Shown: in pieces, positions 35,219-42,673 of the stretch
Layout of the letters: each line of letters begins with the position of its first letter
Numbering within the stretch: the first letter of the stretch is position 1
Assembly: GCA_050298055.1 (NCBI GenBank)
Contig: JBNKTL010000005.1
Span: 34,149-98,148, forward strand
Source: Spirochaetota bacterium
GTDB lineage: Bacteria > Spirochaetota > UBA4802 > UBA5550
DNA length: 64,000 nucleotides
Reading direction: 5' to 3'
Notes under the pieces: model-generated
Databases searched by the model: none
Seen by the model: the letters and a program-made list of their open reading frames with translations, nothing else
What the model was told of the DNA's origin: nothing
Made by a program: the position numbers and the translations under genes

Positions 35219-35300
35219 ATAAAAGTCGAGCTGGAGTTAGTCTGTTTTAATGAGAGCGATTGTCAAGAGAGTTTTCCGGTTTGGGCCCAGTTATTTGAAA

Positions 35301-35458
35301 GGGTCAGAGCATATAGGAAAAAAGCAGATGCAATTATGTCATCTGGATATATAATTTATCAGAAAAATGCATTATTTTACAATAGATGCTGCTCTGTCCC
35401 CTATATTTTTGTTCTAGAGGGTCAGAGCATAGTTTATTTCACAATTGCTCCTGACCCA
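35301..35458. repeat. cluster of REP-like GGGTCAGAGCA motifs in inverted pairs (35301-35311 / 35390-35400 and 35419-35429 / 35446-35458)
   Basis: Direct reading shows GGGTCAGAGCA forward twice and TGCTCTGTCCC / TGCTCCTGACCCA inverted partners, in the AT-rich divergent region upstream of the radical SAM gene. Confidence 0.6.
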
Positions 35459-35643
35459 TAAATATGATTTATACTAACTTGACAAATTGTGGTATGTATA
35501 AATTTATTGAACAATCCTTATAATCATTTAAAGAAACAACAGAGTAACATTTAGCAAAAGTTAAAGACAGATTGTTTAAGTCTTTTAAAAACAATTGTTG
35601 AAAACAGAATTAATTTTGTTTAACCTTCAAAGGAGTATAGATT

Positions 35644-36705
35644 ATGAAAATGCCGAATATTCCCCGGTTAATTTTCTGGGAACTGACAAAGAGATGCAAC
35701 CTTTCCTGTATACACTGCCGTGCTGAAGCTGAGGATAACGAGTTCTACGGAGAACTTGAATTTGAACAGATAAAAAAAGTCATTGATGATATCTCCGAAG
35801 TTTCCAAACCGATACTTGTTCTCACAGGTGGCGAACCCCTTTATAGAAATGATATATTCGATATTGCTCGCTATGCATCAAGTCGTGATTTTCGTGTTGC
35901 CCTGGCAACTAATGGAACACTTGTAAACGAAGAAACTGCTAAAAAAATTAAGGATGCGGGTATTCTCAGGGCCAGTATCTCCCTGGATGGCTGGGATGCG
36001 GAATCTCATGATAGTTTCAGAGCAGTGGAGGGGAGTTTTGAAAATGCTTTGAAGGGAACTCATTATTTAAAAGATGCCGGTGTTGAATTTCAATTCAATA
36101 CAACTATCACAAAAAGAAATGTAGACCGAATGGAAGATATACTGAAGCTTGCTGAAAAAGAAGGTGCAGCGGCACTACACCTTTTCATGCTTGTGCCTGT
36201 AGGTTGCGGTGTAGAAATTGCCGAAACAGATATGATCTCCAGTGAAAAATATGAGGAGGCACTCAACTGGTTATATAATAAATCGAAAGAAGTTAAGATG
36301 GAATTCAAAGCAACATGCGCGCCTCATTATTACAGAATTATCAGGCAAAGAGCAAAGGGAGAGGGGAGAAAACTCAACTTCGAAGAGGATGGAATGGCTG
36401 CCATGACAAGGGGATGTCTTGCAGGTAGCGGTGTTTGTTTTATCTCTCATAGTGGTGATGTCCAACCATGCGGATATCTCCCAATATCAGCAGGGAATGT
36501 GCTGGAAACGCCATTCGAGAAGATCTGGGAAGAATCGGAGCTTTTCCAGTCACTGAGAGATGTTCACCAGCTTAAGGGTAAATGTGGTGACTGTGAGTAC
36601 AGAATGGCCTGTGGGGGCTGCCGGGCAAGGGCATACTATTCGGAAAAAGATTATCTGGGGGAGGAACCTTACTGTATGTATGAGCCCAGGAAAAGAACCG
36701 ATTAA
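35644..36705 (+). CDS. radical SAM/SPASM-domain protein, NirJ/AhbC/AhbD-like (candidate alternative heme biosynthesis enzyme)
   Basis: PRLIFWELTKRCNLSCIHC (CxxxCxxC with the PRLxxWExT lead typical of NirJ-family proteins), HLFMLVPVGCG, and a C-terminal Cys-rich SPASM region (CGDCEYRMACGGCRARAY). Confidence 0.55.
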   Translation: MKMPNIPRLIFWELTKRCNLSCIHCRAEAEDNEFYGELEFEQIKKVIDDISEVSKPILVLTGGEPLYRNDIFDIARYASSRDFRVALATNGTLVNEETAKKIKDAGILRASISLDGWDAESHDSFRAVEGSFENALKGTHYLKDAGVEFQFNTTITKRNVDRMEDILKLAEKEGAAALHLFMLVPVGCGVEIAETDMISSEKYEEALNWLYNKSKEVKMEFKATCAPHYYRIIRQRAKGEGRKLNFEEDGMAAMTRGCLAGSGVCFISHSGDVQPCGYLPISAGNVLETPFEKIWEESELFQSLRDVHQLKGKCGDCEYRMACGGCRARAYYSEKDYLGEEPYCMYEPRKRTD

Positions 36706-36807
36706 TACGTTATAAAAAAAATCAAAAACAAATGACAAGCTAATAATAGTAATTTAGTGAAAATTATTTATGAGAAGTTTTTATTGTTATCATTACTTTT
36801 CATCATG

Positions 36808-37398
36808 TTAATAAATTATTGATAATCTCTTTCTATAGGCTTCTTCATAATAAAGAAACCTGTTAATTCTTTCTTTAAATGTTGATCCAAGTTGTAGAAA
36901 AAAATCATGTTGTGTTATTTTCAGTGGAGATTTATACGTTTCGTTAAGGTATGAATTTATACTGCCATACCTGTAATTTCTCGGATCTTTAACTATTTTT
37001 TCCCTTACTGCGTCAAAGCCGAGATACCATAAGAACCAAAGAAAGTATATTGCAGGATTTTTTAGAAGTTCAATAACAAGACTTTTGAATCTTTCACTCC
37101 AGAATGCACCTTCTCTATTATTCAATCTATTGTATCTTTCAGCAAATCGTGATTTAATATACTGCATTATTCTGGAAATTGTTTCACCGTCATGAAGAGT
37201 TTTAATAATAAAATGAAAATGGTTGTCGAGTATTTCATATGTAATGAGTTGAAATTTATATTTTTTTAAAGCTTTGTCTATGATAGAAATCATTAGATCT
37301 TTATAAAAGTCACTTTCCATCATATTTCTGCTCTCAATACACCGTGATGTAACATGATAAGTCATGCCTGGTTCACAAATTCTTAAAGGTCTTGGCAT
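36808..37398 (-). CDS. HUH (Y1) transposase-like protein, IS200-like / REP-associated tyrosine transposase (RAYT)-like; possibly catalytically degenerate
   Basis: RPLRI.EPGMTYHVTSRCIESR N-terminal block, DNHFHFII HuH motif, and ISRIMQYIKSRFAERYN...AFWSERF block. In my hand alignment the WxRNYYEH tyrosine position reads F (FWSERFKS). GGGTCAGAGCA REP-like inverted pair immediately 5' of the gene. Confidence 0.5.
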   Translation of the reverse strand: MPRPLRICEPGMTYHVTSRCIESRNMMESDFYKDLMISIIDKALKKYKFQLITYEILDNHFHFIIKTLHDGETISRIMQYIKSRFAERYNRLNNREGAFWSERFKSLVIELLKNPAIYFLWFLWYLGFDAVREKIVKDPRNYRYGSINSYLNETYKSPLKITQHDFFLQLGSTFKERINRFLYYEEAYRKRLSIIY

Positions 37399-37465
37399 GG
37401 GATTCTCCTTTGTTGTTGTTTATATTAATACGATTGAAGTTGTGATTATTTAAAAAAAATTTTTC

Positions 37466-37566
37466 GAAATAAGAAAAAAATAGGGTCAGAGCAATAATTT
37501 ATTCTTCAAAATAGTGGTTCTGCCCCTTGGTTTCCCAAAAATAATGCTCTGACCCTATTTCTTATG
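37466..37566. repeat. REP-like inverted pair (ATAAGAAA...TAGGGTCAGAGCA ... TGCTCTGACCCTATTTCTTAT), REPIN-like
   Basis: About 21-bp arms (37466-37493 and 37545-37566) separated by ~50 bp, directly upstream of the HUH transposase-like gene. Confidence 0.65.
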
Positions 37567-37595
37567 GATTATAAAAAATTAGTTTAATATACTTG

Positions 37596-37625
37596 TTGAC
37601 AATTAAAAAAAAATGTTAATATAAT
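37596..37625 (+). promoter_or_regulatory. sigma70-like promoter TTGACA-N18-TATAAT
   Basis: TTGACA at 37596..37601 and TATAAT at 37620..37625. The RBS AGGAG lies 8 nt before the ATG at 37676. Confidence 0.5.
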
Positions 37626-37675
37626 TAGATAGCAATATACCTTCTTATGCGGACTGCAATATACAGGAGCTGCTT

Positions 37676-39178
37676 ATGAAAGAGAACCTCGCGTCTGGAA
37701 AGTGGCACTATTTCACTGCTATAACTCTGTTGTTGATATTTATAATTGTCCTTTTTATTAAAAAAGGGGTCAGAGCAATGGATTATGGCGGAAGAATTGA
37801 TACCCAATATCAGTACAGAACCGGTGATGATGAAGCTGACCAGGATGTCTACCAGTTCCATGCTTTTGAACTTAGCTTTTCGAAAGATCTCAGCTTTGAA
37901 TGGAACGGCGGTTTGAGATACGATATTGACGGTAAAAACACTTCCGCATCGGGTCTTGATGATGCGTCTGATGTTGCCTTAAGGGGACTCCCGGATGCGG
38001 TTAATGAGGAGATGAATTTGGAGTACAGAATATACTCCGCGTTTGTTAAATATAAAACCGCTTTGTTTAGCACCCAAATCGGCAGATCATTTCTCTGGGA
38101 TTATGAGTTTTCCCACTTTGACGGTGCAATGATCTGGTTGAAGCCTCTTGACTGGATTACTATTGAAGGTTTTGTGGGAAAGCCATGGCATTACGCTTAC
38201 TATAATGATTACTCAAAGTACTGGGACGAGTCAGAATCTATCGGAGGTGGCGGAGTGATCTTTAAATTTCGCAAACAGAAACTTGATTTTGCACTCAGGT
38301 ATCTGAACCTCCGGGAACTTACCGAGAAAACAACAGAAACAGGTGAGGCTTCAGATACCTTTCTGTCAAATGACAACCTGACCCGTGCCGCCCTTTCTTA
38401 TACGCCGTTGCGGATTATAAGGGCCGATATATCCGCCTCCTTCATTGACAATGAGGGAAGAAATATCGATGCCGGTTTAAGCGGGTACAGCAGCGAATAT
38501 TTATTCACCTACAGGGTGAATTACTACAGGCAATTCATGGATATAGAATATTACGGAAGCAGATTGTCTCAATATTCCTCCTTTCTTACTGCTAACCATC
38601 CCTATCATAAAGCTTCGGTATATATCACAAAAAGCCTGGCAGATATATTCGGATTTATTGGGCCTGTCTCCGATATGGAGATCGAGGCAGGATATGAATA
38701 CAGGGGGCCTGTTGATCTGGATGAGCGGGATTCCTTTAATCCCGAGTATCAACTTATAAGGGGAGGTCTCATTGCTGCGATAAATGAAAAATATTATCTC
38801 AATATTTTCTCTGAGACCATTATTACAACAGGTGACCGTAACGATACACGGACTTTTGGCGGTGAAATATCCAGAAAATGGAAGACATTGATTATAAAAC
38901 TTGGCTCTGCTTATTTTGTCCATAAATACGAACAGAACTATTCGGATACCCTGATAAAGGACAGCTTCTATGCCAGGGAATACTATTTCAATGTGAAGTG
39001 GATGCCGATAAAATCGCTGGATGTTTCCCTCAAGGCCACTTATGAACAGGCCGAGCTTTCATCCCTGACAGATACTTCGAAGCAGAACCAGGATGTCGTT
39101 TCGGAGCCAATAACAGAGATCATAACCGAGCCCAGGGATTACATGAAGGTTAAACTCAAAGTCGGTTATATGTTTTAA
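37676..39178 (+). CDS. putative outer-membrane beta-barrel (porin-like) protein
   Basis: Signal-peptide-like N-terminus (hydrophobic stretch then VRA). It is Tyr/Gly/Asp-rich with alternating amphipathic strands and a C-terminal ...LKVGYMF aromatic terminus. A GGGTCAGAGCA motif is embedded at 37767..37777 within the signal-peptide coding region. Confidence 0.5.
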   Translation: MKENLASGKWHYFTAITLLLIFIIVLFIKKGVRAMDYGGRIDTQYQYRTGDDEADQDVYQFHAFELSFSKDLSFEWNGGLRYDIDGKNTSASGLDDASDVALRGLPDAVNEEMNLEYRIYSAFVKYKTALFSTQIGRSFLWDYEFSHFDGAMIWLKPLDWITIEGFVGKPWHYAYYNDYSKYWDESESIGGGGVIFKFRKQKLDFALRYLNLRELTEKTTETGEASDTFLSNDNLTRAALSYTPLRIIRADISASFIDNEGRNIDAGLSGYSSEYLFTYRVNYYRQFMDIEYYGSRLSQYSSFLTANHPYHKASVYITKSLADIFGFIGPVSDMEIEAGYEYRGPVDLDERDSFNPEYQLIRGGLIAAINEKYYLNIFSETIITTGDRNDTRTFGGEISRKWKTLIIKLGSAYFVHKYEQNYSDTLIKDSFYAREYYFNVKWMPIKSLDVSLKATYEQAELSSLTDTSKQNQDVVSEPITEIITEPRDYMKVKLKVGYMF

Positions 39179-39189
39179 AGGAGGGTCTT

Positions 39190-40278
39190 ATGAAAATTTT
39201 CAATAACATTAAAATAAATGGAAGAATGAAATCAGGACAGGTGCTGATACTCTCGGCAATAATGATACTGACAGGCTCAGTTTATCTCTGGGGTCTGCTT
39301 CAGAAGAAATCCAGCGGCCTGAAAATGGACCATAAAATCCATGCTGAAAATAATGTGGTGTGCTCTACATGCCACTCTATGAATTCTAATACACGGTTTA
39401 TGACCTTTAAGGGCCACGATGCATGTTCTGAGTGTCATGAGCAGGTCAAGAGTACAAATAAAGAGGATTGTAAAATATGTCACACTAACAGCGAAGGTAA
39501 AACAGCTCTCAGAAAGAATATAAACCTCAGCCCGCTGGTCAACTTTGACCATAAAATCCATGCTGAGGGAGGAGTTAAATGTATCCAGTGTCATACGCGT
39601 GCAGATAAGGAGAAATCTGTTTCCGGCAATAATATGATCCCTCAGATGGAAACCTGTGTGGATTGTCATAAGGACCGGAAGATTGCCGATACGGATGATT
39701 GTTCTACCTGTCACGTAGAGGGATATGAGAGGATAAGGCCTGCGGACCACACACCCTTCTGGTTTCGAAACCACGGTCGGGGGCTGGACAGCAGCACAAG
39801 AGAAAAGAGCTGCAATATCTGCCATACAAAGAAGCTTGGTAATGACTGTCTCAGCTGCCACAGGCGGGAAAAACCGAAAAACCACACAATAGGCTGGAGG
39901 GTGAGAAGCCATGCGCAGTATGCGCAGATTAACCGTGAAAGTTGTGTTACCTGCCATACACAGGGTGAGTGTATTGCATGTCATACAACAACTGAGCCCT
40001 TTTCACATACCGGGTTTTGGGGTGCTCCCTACAACAGACACTGTATTAATTGTCATGTCACAGGCGGGGATTTCAGCGGTGCTTCCGGTGTAGGGAACAA
40101 CTGCACTTTCTGTCACAGGCAGGGGACAATAGTAAGCCGGCATACAACATTGCCGAGGCCGTCAGGTCACGCAACAACAGGATGTTCCAATAACGGTGCA
40201 TCCTGTCACAATGGAAGCCTGGGGCTCAGGCACCCGTATCCCACATCAACTTTCAGCTGCAGGAGCTGTCACCAGTAG
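39190..40278 (+). CDS. multiheme cytochrome c (13 CxxCH motifs), membrane-anchored/periplasmic
   Basis: Thirteen CxxCH motifs counted by eye (CSTCH, CSECH, CKICH, CIQCH, CVDCH, CSTCH, CNICH, CLSCH, CVTCH, CIACH, CINCH, CTFCH, CRSCH). N-terminal TM/signal anchor. It starts 12 nt after the beta-barrel gene. Confidence 0.85.
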   Translation: MKIFNNIKINGRMKSGQVLILSAIMILTGSVYLWGLLQKKSSGLKMDHKIHAENNVVCSTCHSMNSNTRFMTFKGHDACSECHEQVKSTNKEDCKICHTNSEGKTALRKNINLSPLVNFDHKIHAEGGVKCIQCHTRADKEKSVSGNNMIPQMETCVDCHKDRKIADTDDCSTCHVEGYERIRPADHTPFWFRNHGRGLDSSTREKSCNICHTKKLGNDCLSCHRREKPKNHTIGWRVRSHAQYAQINRESCVTCHTQGECIACHTTTEPFSHTGFWGAPYNRHCINCHVTGGDFSGASGVGNNCTFCHRQGTIVSRHTTLPRPSGHATTGCSNNGASCHNGSLGLRHPYPTSTFSCRSCHQ

Positions 40279-40291
40279 CTTATCTCCTTAA

Positions 40292-40345
40292 TGCTCTGAC
40301 CCTCTCTCTTTTTTATTTGGCAGAAAAAGAGAGAGGGTCAGAGCA
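40292..40345. repeat. 22-bp perfect-stem hairpin built from the REP-like motif (TGCTCTGACCCTCTCTCTTTTT / AAAAAGAGAGAGGGTCAGAGCA)
   Basis: Immediately follows the cytochrome stop codon. Possible terminator or REPIN. Confidence 0.7.
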
Positions 40346-40425
40346 GTAATTCAGGGGTCAGAGCAGTAATTCAGGGGTCAGAGCAGTAATTCAGGGGTCA
40401 GAGCAGTAATTCAGGGGTCAGAGCA
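40335..40425. repeat. tandem direct repeat, 4.5 copies of a 20-bp unit GGGTCAGAGCAGTAATTCAG
   Basis: Perfectly identical units at 40335, 40355, 40375 and 40395, plus a partial unit at 40415. There are no spacers, so it is not CRISPR. Confidence 0.85.
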
Positions 40426-40522
40426 TTTTATCACGGGAAAATCCAAAAAAACAGGATACTCCACCCGGAATACCCTGTTTAAGTTCCAACCTGAATTATG
40501 CCTGATAATAATACAGATATTC

Positions 40523-41815
40523 TTATGGCCTGGTTCCGCCATTTGGATAAGTCACAATGCTGGCACCGGCATTTAACTGCAGGTTCTCTATGGCATCCCA
40601 GAGGAGCTGTGCGACATAAGTTGCATTATGGATGCCCCCGCTCCTGTCCTCAAGTGCGAGCCTGAAGTTCCAGAATGACGCTGCCTGTGCCTGTGTAAAG
40701 GTTGCCGTCTGTATTTCCCAGTCAAGTCCCCATTCACCTGTAGTCTGGTCACTTCCTGTCAAACCGACAATAGGCCCGGTTCCATCACCGCTGAAGTTGT
40801 TAGTGCCGTCACCGAAATATTTTACCAGTGTTGCCATCATTCCGGAAATCTCATTGATCATACCTTCCGTTGATCCAGTTCCATCCCAGTTCGATGGTGC
40901 AGTGTGGTTGGTCTCACCGGCAAATGTCGCTCCGAATGCGGGCCATCCGCTTGGATGGCATCCAGTCGCCTGGCATGAAGCCACAAGATCATAAGAGTTC
41001 CCGTGAACCTCGCCCTTCAGATAGAAACCGTGTCCGCCCAGGGCAAGGCTGTCATTGCTTCCGGCTTCCGAATACATGTGGCACTGTACGCAGCTGTCTG
41101 TTATTGCTCCCTCATGGTCACCTGAAGCCAGGTAAGCGGCACCCCCTGTGGGATCTTGATAATTACCGACACCTATATCAAGTTCAATACTTGCTATAGC
41201 GGTAGCATTTGACCAGGGAAAGGCGTTTGCTCCCACAAGAACATCGGCCTGCGGTCCGTGGTGCGGCCCCCTGTAACTTGCCAGTGACGCTGTTGCCGTT
41301 GAAAAGACAAAGTTGTCAGTGGCCACAGAGTTTGCCCTGTGGCACGCAACACAGAGATTACCCTTTCCGATGTTAAAGCCTGTGCCATCCTTCAGGGTCA
41401 CCGCGTCAGTAGTTCTTAAGGTGAAATCACCGGATGTATGAGGCGAATGGCATGTGAAACATCCCGGTGGCGCAGAGTATGAACCTGTGCTTGTTTCTCC
41501 CGAAAGCGAAGTAACAAACGCCTCATGGTTGTGACATGATTCGGCACAATAGGACGCGTTGCTTCCGTGGTGAATGTAGGTATGCCCCGTTGTCAAATAA
41601 TTGGGGTCCAGGGTCCTCGGTCCAAGCCAGTGCCCGGAATTATCATATCCTGCCTGCGCAAAGAGGAGTGCCATGCCGATTGTTGATGTTTCGCTATGAC
41701 ATCCCATGCAGCCTGCGGTATCACTGCTTGAACTGCTGTCATCACCGCATCCGATAGCGAACAGAGCGGATACGGTTATTATCATCAGCACATAGAGGAA
41801 AAATTTCAAACGCAT
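40523..41815 (-). CDS. lipoprotein multiheme cytochrome c (5-6 heme motifs including CxxxCH/CxxxxCH variants)
   Basis: Start at 41815 after a GGAGG Shine-Dalgarno; the ORF track gives 41866. Signal peptide with lipobox AIGC. Heme motifs CMGCH, CAESCH, CFTCH, CVACH, CVQCH, CQATGCH. Gly/Thr/Ser-rich. Confidence 0.75.
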   Translation of the reverse strand: MRLKFFLYVLMIITVSALFAIGCGDDSSSSSDTAGCMGCHSETSTIGMALLFAQAGYDNSGHWLGPRTLDPNYLTTGHTYIHHGSNASYCAESCHNHEAFVTSLSGETSTGSYSAPPGCFTCHSPHTSGDFTLRTTDAVTLKDGTGFNIGKGNLCVACHRANSVATDNFVFSTATASLASYRGPHHGPQADVLVGANAFPWSNATAIASIELDIGVGNYQDPTGGAAYLASGDHEGAITDSCVQCHMYSEAGSNDSLALGGHGFYLKGEVHGNSYDLVASCQATGCHPSGWPAFGATFAGETNHTAPSNWDGTGSTEGMINEISGMMATLVKYFGDGTNNFSGDGTGPIVGLTGSDQTTGEWGLDWEIQTATFTQAQAASFWNFRLALEDRSGGIHNATYVAQLLWDAIENLQLNAGASIVTYPNGGTRP

Positions 41816-42673
41816 TATGAAAACCTCCGTTTGATTAAATTTATATAAACATCGGAGATTTTGCACATCCTGCAGCTGGAATCGGATCGCCGTGTAATCT
41901 CTTCTGTTAATATCGCAGTATTAATCCAACTAAGTCGTCTTCAGCTGATATTTTCCTCATTTGTAGAAAAAATTTTTCGTGAACCTGAACCGGGTAAGAT
42001 TTCTGTTTTTATGGAAGACAAGAAAGAAAAAGAAGAGTTTCTGAATAACATTAGTAACATCCTTATCCTTACTATTAATTATAATATACTTAATTTTAAG
42101 GTTAGTCAATAATATTGTCAGATTTTAAAAATTTATGGTTTTATTGCTCTATTACGTTTTTTTATATCCAGCACTATACATAGCCCTTAAACGTCTGTTA
42201 GATGATATGCTTTGAGGAGTAAAATGGGTTTTTATGGAATTTTACAGGAAACATGAAGATCTTCTTTCATAAATATGTAACAATTACAAATCTGTATTGA
42301 CAAAAAATTATAGAATATTGTTGGAATTTTAGTAAATAAATGTATCTTTATTAATATCGCTGAGTAATTAAGGAGAAATCACACAAACAGTACGATGTCA
42401 TGTAAAATACCTTTTTTGTAATGCTGAAAAAATATGATAAAATTAAGAAATTATATACTTTTTAAAAAAATAAGTTGATTAAAAAAGATGGTGTCTGTCT
42501 ATTGTATTTCACTCAATATTATTAAATAAAGAGAAATAATGGGAATATAAAGTCAGAATTGATTAATATAGATGCTGTTTAAAATGGCATATTCCCGTTT
42601 AAAAATTTATTTTTTTATTGTGCATTTTGCCAGGGATTAACCTGTATAAATAATAATTTTTAGGAGGGAAAGA

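What the first reader, a model, noticed from the sequence alone, without database searches (positions are those of the whole stretch)
35301..40425. GGGTCAGAGCA REP-like repeats in REPIN-like inverted pairs, a 20-bp tandem array, and an adjacent HUH/RAYT-like transposase gene that may be catalytically degenerate
The 11-mer GGGTCAGAGCA (or its complement) occurs at 35301, 35390(inv), 35419, 35446(inv), 37483, 37545(inv), 37767, 40292(inv) and 40335. From 40335 it is expanded into 4.5 perfect 20-bp tandem units (GGGTCAGAGCAGTAATTCAG). Pairs are in inverted orientation with 20-90-bp spacers, like REPINs. The gene at 36808..37398(-) has an IS200-like/RAYT architecture (PGMTYHVTSR, NHFHFII HuH motif, FWSERF block), and the 37466..37566 pair lies directly 5' of it. 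In my hand alignment the tyrosine of the family's W.RNYYEH motif is Phe, which would make it a domesticated or inactive copy. The tandem array plus a 22-bp perfect hairpin immediately after the cytochrome stop codon suggests the repeats have been co-opted as terminator/structural elements.
Basis: partly seen in the sequence, partly recalled or inferred. Interest (0 to 1): 0.65.

Follow-up and report, generated by a model that had tools for sequence, protein, structure and literature searches.

The report
Tyrosine-transposase relative with its cognate repeat
This is a chromosomal, apparently immobile relative of the REP-associated tyrosine transposases, surrounded by copies of the short DNA word it most probably recognises; it is a new member of a known but poorly understood class, and its catalytic residues are intact rather than degenerate.

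Summary
GGGTCAGAGCA occurs 11 times exactly, all within 35301-40425 (0.02 expected). Two further listed copies are imperfect. The 20-bp x4.6 perfect array and the 22-26-bp hairpin are real.

The gene at 36808..37398(-) is a RAYT-like HUH/Y1 enzyme. Its best sequence and fold match among solved structures is E. coli TnpA-REP (4ER8).

It is not catalytically degenerate. HuH (H60, H62) and the catalytic Tyr (Y125 = Y115) are present. The only oddity is Asp for the conserved Asn metal ligand (D129).

The 11-mer is the family's cognate motif. In 80 homologous loci chosen by protein alone, its core lies within 250 nt upstream in 69/80 and within 350 nt downstream in 60/75. Upstream and downstream copies are mutually inverted, and density decays with distance.

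This matches the "TIRtron/TIRYT" arrangement (GGGGWSAS repeats) of Di Nocera et al. 2013, not canonical REP/REPIN. The unit is not palindromic, has no GTAG and forms no hairpin alone.

The hairpin lacks a T-run; a terminator-like site lies about 100 nt downstream. What the protein actually does at the motif is untested.

The parts
36808..37398 (-). 196-aa RAYT/TIRYT-like HUH-Y1 gene. HuH = N59-H60-F61-H62. Catalytic Tyr = Y125 in WYLGFDAV. Third metal ligand = D129, where the family has Asn.
   Evidence: Pfam Y1_Tnp 47.3 bits. NCBIfam REP_Tyr_transpos 65.9 bits over 4-145/146, below its cutoff of 80. The family profile hits 4ER8 with Y125 aligned to Y115. AlphaFold2 pLDDT 95.6. Foldseek top hit 4ER8_A, E 2.4e-8.
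37483..37555 (.). Convergent motif pair (37483-37493 +, 37545-37555 -) with a 51-nt spacer, 84 nt upstream of the RAYT start codon. It lies in the divergent intergenic region shared with the 500-aa gene. This is the family's conserved upstream repeat position.
   Evidence: (I1). The same pair is present in the orthologous locus L003, with a 29-nt spacer indel. The proximal upstream copy lies 54-162 nt from the ATG in most of the 80 loci.
35301..35457 (.). Cluster of four copies upstream of ahbD: 35301 +, 35390 - (1 mismatch), 35419 +, 35446-35457 - (1-nt insertion). It sits at the junction where a related species carries an extra ~17 kb.
37767..37777 (+). Motif copy inside the 5' coding region of the 500-aa ORF. 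It is read in frame as G-V-R-A at the end of the predicted signal peptide and is conserved in the orthologue.
40288..40349 (.). Divergent motif pair (40292-40302 -, 40335-40345 +) forming a 22-26-bp hairpin with a 10-nt loop. It starts 10-14 nt after the cytochrome stop codon. No T-run follows.
   Evidence: (I3).
40335..40425 (+). Perfect tandem array of 4.6 x 20 bp (GGGTCAGAGCAGTAATTCAG). Each unit is the 11-nt core plus a 9-nt spacer.
   Evidence: The orthologous site in L003 has at least 7 x 19 bp with the same core but a different spacer. The Logan contig L001 breaks inside the array.

Best explanation
The locus is a chromosomal 'TIRtron/REPtron-type' unit. It consists of a vertically inherited, single-location HUH/Y1 enzyme of the RAYT (TnpA-REP) class together with copies of its cognate short DNA word, (G)GGGTCAGAGC(A/C).

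Shown:
- The protein has the RAYT fold.
- It has an intact HuH motif and an intact catalytic tyrosine.
- The word marks the borders of this gene family across many genomes, at fixed distance and orientation.
- The word's density falls off with distance from the gene.

Inferred, by analogy with E. coli TnpA-REP and IS608 TnpA:
- The protein binds this word and nicks and rejoins single-stranded DNA beside it.
- Over time, that activity, together with replication slippage, produced the local cloud of solo copies, the inverted pairs that can form hairpins, the 20-bp tandem array, and rearrangements whose ends fall in motif clusters.

The window's copy departs from the family's canonical unit. It has lost the downstream repeat and carries Asp instead of Asn as the third metal ligand.
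For: Protein:
- Pfam Y1_Tnp and the NCBIfam RAYT model matched over its full length.
- H60/H62 and Y125 are conserved in 97 homologues.
- The family profile aligns Y125 to Y115, D129 to N119 and H60/H62 to the HMH of 4ER8. Y115F is the catalytic mutant (PMC8266576). N119 and Q131 are the third metal ligand (PMC6006769).
- The AlphaFold2 model has pLDDT 95.6, and its top PDB fold match is 4ER8_A.

Motif-gene link:
- An unbiased 8-mer count over 80 protein-selected metagenome loci puts CTCTGACC/GGGTCAGA first: 69/80 upstream and 60/75 downstream.
- Upstream copies within 300 nt are 98 '-' against 27 '+'. Downstream copies within 100 nt are 50/50 '+'.
- Density is 4.8-8.5 per kb next to the gene and falls to 0.1-0.4 per kb at 2-6 kb. 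Chance is 0.008 per kb.
- The same exact 11-mer clusters round the paralogue P0005 in an assembly of the window's species, and round the orthologue and a second paralogue in GCA_975964425.1.
- A variant, GGCTCWGAGCC, flanks 52-54%-identical homologues.
- The exact 12-mer lies 62 nt upstream of a 28%-identical homologue on a Skermanella plasmid. It also lies next to 27-31%-identical homologues in Massilia/Telluria.

Not an active insertion sequence:
- Orthologous synteny with L003.
- P0049 sits in one identical context in every place shown (10 shown plus 10 similar not shown, out of 23 contigs read).
- Paralogues are only 65-72% identical.

Rearrangement:
- A ~17-kb indel relative to GCA_975964425.1 has both ends in motif clusters.

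Literature:
- Di Nocera 2013 (PMC3733652) describes RAYT-like genes flanked at a fixed distance by inverted repeats sharing GGGGWSAS.
Against: - There is no direct evidence that this protein binds or cuts the motif.
- The motif is only 11-12 nt, is not self-complementary, and lacks the GT[AG]G-plus-hairpin that TnpA-REP is known to need. The recognition mode must therefore differ from the studied enzyme.
- In this window the motif is absent from the other 59 kb, so genome-wide dissemination is not shown for this organism.
- 44% of distal copies in related loci lie in long open frames. The copy in purE involves no insertion. Simple insertional spread does not explain this.
- D129 is unique among 118 homologues and may alter activity.
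- The NCBIfam RAYT model is below its cutoff.
Confidence: 0.72

Rival explanations
1. Classical REP/REPIN system. Each unit would be a palindromic REP, doublets in inverted orientation would be the mobile REPIN, and the RAYT would spread them genome-wide.
For: There are three inverted pairs in the window, two of which fold well as ssDNA. The gene is RAYT-like. Repeat clusters flank the gene as in REPtrons. In Massilia/Telluria the same word occurs in dispersed [2 direct]-~120 nt-[2 inverted] units.
Against: The 11-mer does not fold on its own (0 kcal/mol). No GT[AG]G foot is conserved, and nothing beyond about 12 nt is conserved. Round the paralogue all close pairs are direct, not inverted. 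The canonical family arrangement is one or two upstream copies and one inverted downstream copy bracketing the gene. There are zero copies in the other 59 kb of the window.
Confidence: 0.1
2. The word is mainly a double-strand binding site for the dimeric protein, for example for autoregulation or local DNA organisation, in the way parS clusters near parB. Catalysis would play little part. Copies arise in place by point substitution under selection, not by transposition.
For: The word is a pseudo-palindrome: GG[G/C]TC-W-GA[G/C]C[C/A], and fully palindromic (GGCTCWGAGCC) in one lineage. The proximal upstream copy sits at a conserved 54-162 nt from the ATG. Copies inside purE, the FAD-protein gene and the 500-aa gene are in-frame normal coding sequence. 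Distal copies use all five stop-free frames. The core is identical across phyla while its flanks are free.
Against: HuH and the catalytic Tyr are at least 90% conserved across 97 homologues, which argues that catalysis is under selection. The upstream pair in the window lies upstream of the putative -35 of the RAYT gene rather than over it (sequence inspection). Perfect tandem arrays and the motif-bounded 17-kb indel fit DNA processing better.
Confidence: 0.15
3. An active IS200/IS605-type insertion sequence, with the repeats as its ends.
For: Pfam Y1_Tnp match. Compact repeat-gene-repeat units of about 0.9 kb are seen in most homologous loci. There are several paralogues per genome.
Against: NCBIfam transpos_IS200 scores 25 bits against a cutoff of 55. 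The motif after the catalytic Tyr has a class-2 Y---N/D spacing, not Y---Q. The nearest flanking genes (ahbD at 35644-36705 and the 500-aa ORF) are not TnpB. No near-identical copies exist; paralogues are 65-72% identical. The location is fixed across samples and species. The downstream repeat is missing here.
Confidence: 0.03
4. The hairpin and array after the cytochrome gene have been co-opted as a transcription terminator or an mRNA 3'-end stabiliser. This is compatible with the main explanation.
For: A 23-bp RNA stem starts 14 nt after the stop codon. A motif pair plus array lies at the orthologous position in L003. REP hairpins are known to stabilise upstream mRNA (general knowledge).
Against: No U-tract follows the stem. 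The consensus scan instead finds a 14-bp stem plus T-run at 40480-40449 on the opposite strand, preceded by an A-run that could act in both directions. Terminator-like sites in the region are no more frequent than in shuffles (5 against 5.0).
Confidence: 0.2

Closest known systems
TIRYT / TIRtron (Di Nocera, De Gregorio & Rocco 2013, BMC Genomics 14:522; PMC3733652). Largely equal to TnpA-Y1 subclass 2.1 of Quentin et al. 2018 (PMC6006769) and Bertels Group 1.
   Same: A RAYT-like Y1 gene flanked at roughly fixed distance by inverted repeats that share GGGGWSAS; the consensus here, gGGGTCAGAGC, fits. The HuH is of the NH[YF]H type. Copy number per genome is low. The repeats sometimes form small dispersed families, dimers or clusters. 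Homologues of this type (Skermanella, Legionella) align to the family profile with probability 99.6%.
   Different: The protein is 196 aa with no detectable C-terminal HTH; the subclass 2.1 median is 238 aa with Bac_DnaA_C/HTH_23/HTH_28-like tails. The motif after the Tyr is YLGFDA rather than Y[IV]xLNP. The window copy has lost the downstream repeat. The locus has an unusually rich local cloud: 12 copies in 5.1 kb, a perfect 20-bp array and an in-frame coding copy.
E. coli TnpA-REP / REPtron (RAYT subclass 2.2; PDB 4ER8)
   Same: Best sequence-profile and fold match among solved structures. HuH, the catalytic Tyr and the position of the third ligand correspond. The gene is single-location, vertically inherited and surrounded by its repeats.
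   Different: The repeat is not a GTAG-footed imperfect palindrome. The single sequence finds no PDB homologue, and the profile match reaches only E 4.6e-4. Asp replaces N119. An extra C-terminal helical tail of about 50 aa is present.
IS200/IS605 TnpA (IS608, ISDra2)
   Same: The same HUH/Y1 core fold, and presumably the same chemistry.
   Different: No Y---Q motif, no subterminal hairpins, no TnpB, no identical copies. NCBIfam transpos_IS200 is far below its cutoff.

Membership tests
RAYT / TnpA-REP (class 2 TnpA-Y1) | HuH motif | tested here: met
   N59-H60-F61-H62. H62 is invariant and H60 at least 90% conserved in 97 homologues. The motif aligns to the HMH of 4ER8.
RAYT / TnpA-REP (class 2 TnpA-Y1) | Catalytic Tyr on helix alpha-D in a Y---N(P) motif | tested here: inconclusive
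   The Tyr is present: Y125 aligns to Y115, and Y115F is the catalytic mutant (PMC8266576). The N(P) is D129-A130 here. D129 is unique among 118 homologues. N119 is the third metal ligand in E. coli (PMC6006769). Asp could still bind metal, but this is untested.
RAYT / TnpA-REP (class 2 TnpA-Y1) | Fold of TnpA-REP | tested here: met
   AlphaFold2 pLDDT 95.6. Foldseek top hit 4ER8_A, E 2.4e-8, TM 0.62/0.73, ranked ahead of all IS200/IS605 TnpA structures.
RAYT / TnpA-REP (class 2 TnpA-Y1) | Curated model NF047646 REP_Tyr_transpos at or above its cutoff | tested here: not met
   65.9 bits against a cutoff of 80, although aligned over 4-145 of 146 model positions.
RAYT / TnpA-REP (class 2 TnpA-Y1) | Flanked by REPs: a 5' GT[AG]G foot plus an imperfect palindrome | tested here: not met
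   The 11-mer has no self-structure. Nothing is conserved outside about 12 nt and there is no GT[AG]G.
RAYT / TnpA-REP (class 2 TnpA-Y1) | Low copy number, vertically inherited, no recent duplicates | tested here: met
   Synteny with L003 at 79% amino-acid identity. P0049 has the same context in every place shown. Paralogues are 65-72% identical.
RAYT / TnpA-REP (class 2 TnpA-Y1) | Cognate repeat over-represented genome-wide | tested here: inconclusive
   Zero copies in the other 59 kb of the window. In related genomes, copies more than 2 kb from the gene run at 0.1-0.4 per kb against 0.008 by chance. Direct pairs lie on stretches without a RAYT in 13 of 17 Spirochaetota/Leptospirales loci. 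The whole genome of this organism could not be scanned.
TIRYT / TIRtron (Di Nocera 2013); TnpA-Y1 subclass 2.1 | Gene bracketed by inverted repeats at a fixed distance | tested here: met
   Met at family level: upstream copies are mostly '-' at 54-162 nt, and downstream copies are '+' at 9-51 nt in 50 loci. In the window itself only the upstream side is present; 36706-36807 has no copy.
TIRYT / TIRtron (Di Nocera 2013); TnpA-Y1 subclass 2.1 | Repeats share GGGGWSAS | tested here: met
   The family consensus is gGGGTCAGAGC. In the window, copies at 37767 and 40355-40415 read GGGGTCAG. The others read AGGGTCAG, matching 7 of 8 positions.
TIRYT / TIRtron (Di Nocera 2013); TnpA-Y1 subclass 2.1 | C-terminal helix-turn-helix tail (Bac_DnaA_C / HTH_23 / HTH_28) | tested here: not met
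   No Pfam hit on residues 141-196 even at E 10. A Legionella homologue does show a weak Bac_DnaA_C match.
TIRYT / TIRtron (Di Nocera 2013); TnpA-Y1 subclass 2.1 | Assignment with the authors' own subclass HMMs or tree | not testable with these tools
   The subclass profiles of Quentin et al. are not available here.
IS200/IS605 insertion sequence | Y---Q motif, subterminal hairpins, often tnpB, near-identical copies | tested here: not met
   (25 bits against 55).
Intrinsic terminator (for hairpin 40288-40349) | G+C-rich stem followed by a T/U run | tested here: not met
   Not reported by the scan. The sequence after the stem is GTAATTCAGG. The scan's hit is at 40480-40449.

The most novel reading that the evidence does not exclude
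The 11-12-nt word is not a mobile repeat. It is the fixed recognition site of a domesticated HUH nuclease that acts preferentially in cis, within a few kb of its own gene, across at least three phyla. New sites would be seeded in place, including inside essential coding sequences such as purE through in-frame codons. The seeding would occur by protein-driven short-patch strand exchange or by selection for local site arrays. Motif clusters would then serve as programmed break/rejoin points that add or remove adjacent gene blocks. Here that block would be the 17-kb segment with a 3917-aa multihaem cytochrome, present in the sister species and absent from the window.
Probability: 0.15. Interest if true: 0.7.

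Novelty: new member of a known kind. Interest (0 to 1): 0.38.

Why it matters
RAYT-like genes of the TIR-associated type are widespread, but no function is known for them. Quentin et al. 2018 found no repeats associated with subclass 2.1.

This locus and its roughly 90 relatives show three things. Essentially one 11-12-nt word is kept next to these genes from Spirochaetota to Alpha- and Betaproteobacteria. It sits at a fixed place and orientation. It also accumulates locally, even inside coding sequence.

That gives a precise, testable DNA substrate for biochemical work on this enzyme class, and a case for asking whether such words mark rearrangement hot spots.

For annotating this window, the practical message is simpler. 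The gene is an intact RAYT-like enzyme rather than a dead one, and the repeats are its cognate sites rather than classical REPINs or a terminator.

Tried and rejected
- A single-sequence search of the PDB gave only noise. A profile of homologues was needed.
- The first batch DNA fold failed because one sequence exceeded the length limit. It was repeated.
- A literature search for the literal sequence found only unrelated eukaryotic primers.
- Haem-pathway linkage looked suggestive. ahbD is adjacent here and in L003, and P0049 lies inside an ahb cluster. However, 0 of 45 protein-selected loci of at least 6 kb carry haem genes. I rejected a pathway-specific role.
- The 'GVRA frame' idea came from all in-CDS copies in L004 and the window reading G/R-V-R-A. 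Across all loci the five stop-free frames are used about equally, so there is no special frame.
- Rfam gave only sub-threshold generic-hairpin (miRNA-like) hits on the big hairpin.
- PADLOC gave no defence-system match.
- Plasmids carry only distant homologues, at most 33% identical over partial matches and at most 29% over near-full-length matches.
A true census for this organism was therefore not obtained.
- Copy-number variation of the array between strains could not be assessed. The only other contig reaching it (L001) ends inside it.

Full report
**1. The observation**

The 11-mer GGGTCAGAGCA occurs exactly 11 times in the 64-kb window. All copies lie between 35301 and 40425, against 0.02 expected by chance. 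Allowing one mismatch adds only 35390(-).

Tandem Repeats Finder reports 40335-40425 as 4.6 perfect copies of the 20-bp unit GGGTCAGAGCAGTAATTCAG. The hairpin after the cytochrome stop codon has arms 40288-40313 and 40324-40349, 22 bp of which are perfect. Its ssDNA folding energy is -26.6 kcal/mol, z = -8.8.

The 37483/37545 pair makes a long-range stem (z = -5.0). The 35419/35446 pair is weak (z = -1.8). The 11-mer alone has no structure.

**2. The gene**

ORF 36808..37398(-) is 196 aa. It matches Pfam Y1_Tnp at 47.3 bits against a cutoff of 23. It aligns over the whole NCBIfam REP-associated tyrosine transposase model at 65.9 bits, which is below that model's cutoff of 80.

A database search found 118 clusters of homologues. 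Most are 193-199 aa and come from Spirochaetota metagenome-assembled genomes.

In alignments of 29 and 97 members, H62 is invariant. H60, F104, Y125 and N129 are at least 90% conserved.

A profile of the family finds E. coli TnpA-REP (4ER8) as the best solved relative. That alignment gives these correspondences:

| Window protein | E. coli TnpA-REP |
|---|---|
| H60, H62 | HMH |
| F104 | F98 |
| Y125 | Y115 |
| position 129 | N119 |

Y115F is the catalytic mutant of the E. coli enzyme (PMC8266576). N119, like Q131 of IS608, is the third metal ligand (PMC6006769).

An AlphaFold2 model has mean pLDDT 95.6. Its best PDB fold match is 4ER8_A, with E 2.4e-8, ahead of all IS200/IS605 transposases.

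F104 is the family norm and is also Phe in the active E. coli enzyme. The nucleophile and the HuH motif are intact.

One real peculiarity remains. The window protein has Asp at 129, where all other homologues inspected have Asn or, rarely, another residue. The same protein sequence occurs in three independent assemblies. Asp can ligate metal, so I do not call the protein inactive.

**3. Are the repeats tied to the gene?**

Loci fetched by exact protein look-up showed the same exact 11-mer round relatives.
- The orthologue (79% identity, same cytochrome / 500-aa / RAYT / ahbD synteny) in GCA_975964425.1 has copies at all four corresponding places. These include a tandem array of at least 7 x 19 bp after the cytochrome gene (L003).
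- A 68%-identical paralogue has ten copies within 5.3 kb, in a purE/guaA neighbourhood (L004-L007). One of these loci, L005, comes from GCA_050292195.1. That assembly also yielded L002, which is 99.2% identical to the window.
- A third paralogue has three copies just upstream (L008).
- More distant homologues (52-54% identity) are flanked on both sides by the palindromic variant GGCTCWGAGCC.

I then took 80 metagenome loci selected only by protein similarity, at 47-60% identity.
- An unbiased 8-mer count ranked CTCTGACC/GGGTCAGA first. It is present within 250 nt upstream in 69/80 loci and within 350 nt downstream in 60/75.
- The 9-nt core is mostly in '-' orientation upstream: 98 against 27 within 300 nt. 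Often there are two copies, with the proximal one 54-162 nt from the start.
- Downstream, within 100 nt, the core is always '+' (50/50), lying 9-51 nt after the alignable end of the gene.
- Density falls from 5-8 per kb at the gene borders to 0.1-0.4 per kb at 2-6 kb. That is still more than ten times the chance value of 0.008 per kb.
- Only (G)GGGTCAGAGC(A/C), with an A-rich 5' flank, is conserved.

The canonical unit is thus [TGCTCTGACCCC x1-2] - gene - [GGGGTCAGAGCM], which is an inverted-repeat bracket.

**4. Beyond the clade**

Hits fell in three groups:
- Spirochaetota/Leptospirales assemblies. Some have a RAYT homologue within the 8-kb stretch, and 13 of the 17 titled loci have none.
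- Unexpectedly, Massilia/Telluria, Gemmatimonadaceae and Casimicrobiaceae. In these the word forms dispersed [2 direct] - about 120 nt - [2 inverted] units.
- Loci where the word lies about 100 nt upstream of 27-31%-identical RAYT-like genes.

On a Skermanella plasmid, a 250-aa 'transposase' is 28% identical and aligns to the family profile with hhalign probability 99.6%. It has GGGGTCAGAGCA 62 nt upstream of its start.

The word therefore travels with a broad branch of RAYT-like proteins across phyla.

**5. What is known**

Di Nocera et al. 2013 (PMC3733652) described RAYT-like genes flanked at similar distances by terminal inverted repeats sharing GGGGWSAS. They named them TIRYTs and TIRtrons, and noted that some of the repeats form small families, dimers or clusters.

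Quentin et al. 2018 (PMC6006769) place most TIRYTs in TnpA-Y1 subclass 2.1. That subclass has an NH[YF]H HuH motif, a Y---NP motif and a C-terminal HTH, and corresponds to Bertels Group 1. They report finding no REP-like sequences near such genes.

The window protein shares NHFH and the GGGGTCAG-type repeat. It differs in being shorter and in having no detectable HTH.

Classical REP features are absent: there is no GT[AG]G foot and no palindromic unit. I therefore file the locus as a new member of the TIRtron kind, related to but not a member of the canonical REP/REPIN systems.

**6. Mobility and mechanism**

The gene behaves as a resident.
- Synteny is conserved between species.
- One homologue sits in an identical context in every place shown, out of 23 contigs read from many samples.
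- Paralogues are old, at 65-72% identity.

The haem-gene neighbourhood is lineage-specific. None of 45 other loci has haem genes.

The window cluster at 35301-35457 is a junction. Its left part is homologous to the region upstream of paralogue P0007 in the sister species. Its right part is homologous to the region upstream of ahbD there. In that species the two are separated by about 17 kb, carrying P0007, a two-component system and a 3917-aa multihaem cytochrome. Both ends of the indel lie in motif clusters. This is consistent with motif-associated rearrangement, but it is a single case.

Of distal motif copies, 56% are outside long open frames, against 15% for random positions. The remaining 44% lie inside long open frames, in all five stop-free frames. 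The purE copy is ordinary coding sequence with no insertion.

By analogy with TnpA-REP and IS608 TnpA, I infer that the protein nicks and rejoins ssDNA next to the word. Together with replication slippage, this would generate solo copies, pairs and perfect arrays. This step is inference only.

**7. The terminator idea**

The large hairpin is not followed by a T-run. The consensus scan finds a 14-bp stem plus T-run at 40480-40449, which serves the convergent gene and is possibly bidirectional. Rfam gives only sub-threshold generic hairpin matches. An mRNA-stabilising role cannot be excluded. Co-option as a terminator is not supported.

**8. Verdict**

It is a RAYT-like gene with its cognate repeats, of the TIR-associated type rather than REPIN. 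The enzyme is not catalytically degenerate, though it has an unusual Asn-to-Asp change at the third metal ligand. Novelty is modest, as a new member of a known kind. The main value is a sharply defined, cross-phylum DNA word for an enzyme class whose function is unknown.

Noticed in passing
window 35219-35643; L008 9716-10000; L003 (reverse) upstream of ahbD: There is a ~17-kb presence/absence difference between the window and GCA_975964425.1. The extra block holds a RAYT paralogue, a histidine kinase, a response regulator and a 3917-aa multihaem cytochrome. Both ends of the difference lie in motif clusters.
   Followed up: partly
window 36808-37398 (-), codon 129: Asp replaces the Asn that is otherwise conserved four residues after the catalytic Tyr, which is the third metal ligand (N119 in E. 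coli TnpA-REP). It is unique among 118 homologues. The same protein sequence occurs in three independent assemblies.
   Followed up: partly
L004 3159, 5251, 5926; window 37767: Motif copies lie inside coding sequences (purE, an FAD-dependent protein, the 500-aa ORF) and are read in frame as G/R-V-R-A. There is no insertion relative to normal PurE sequence. Across all loci the five stop-free frames are used about equally.
   Followed up: yes
L012, L015, L035, L041, L061 and about 60 other loci (Massilia, Telluria, Gemmatimonadaceae, Casimicrobiaceae): The same exact 11-mer, preceded by AAATTCG, forms dispersed [2 direct] - about 120 nt - [2 inverted] units on many scaffolds. The internal sequences are not conserved between copies. 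Some lie about 100 nt upstream of RAYT-like genes that are 27-31% identical.
   Followed up: partly
L091 6943-7163; L025 6206-6675; L119 1913-1947: Tandem arrays containing the word occur in other genomes with different periods: 14 bp x16 in L091, 12 bp x3 in L119, and a 27-bp array in a Methanotrichaceae archaeon (L025). The archaeal array may be unrelated.
   Followed up: no
window 37676-39178 (+) and 39190-40278 (+): A 500-aa protein with an N-terminal signal-like segment has no Pfam, NCBIfam or PADLOC match. It is followed by a 362-aa multihaem c-type cytochrome, and this pair is conserved in the sister species. It may be a porin-cytochrome type module.
   Followed up: no
window 37596-37625 (+): A perfect sigma-70 consensus promoter (TTGACA-18-TATAAT, 12/12) lies just downstream of the motif pair and about 50 nt before the 500-aa ORF. 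The TTGACA is conserved in L003.
   Followed up: no
window 40449-40480: A 14-bp stem with a flanking A-run and T-run lies between the two convergent cytochrome genes. It is the likely real terminator for gene 40523-41866(-), and perhaps works in both directions.
   Followed up: no
window 39328-39347 and 39547-39566: A 20-nt exact direct repeat (GACCATAAAATCCATGCTGA, encoding DHKIHAE) occurs inside the cytochrome gene. It suggests an internal duplication of a haem-binding module (D8).
   Followed up: no
L208-L217: A 54%-identical homologue sits inside an alternative haem biosynthesis cluster (hemA-ahbD-ahbAB-ahbC-RAYT-sirC) in every place shown across many samples. Together with ahbD next to the window gene, this looks like an old insertion near haem genes in this lineage. 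It is not general for the family.
   Followed up: yes
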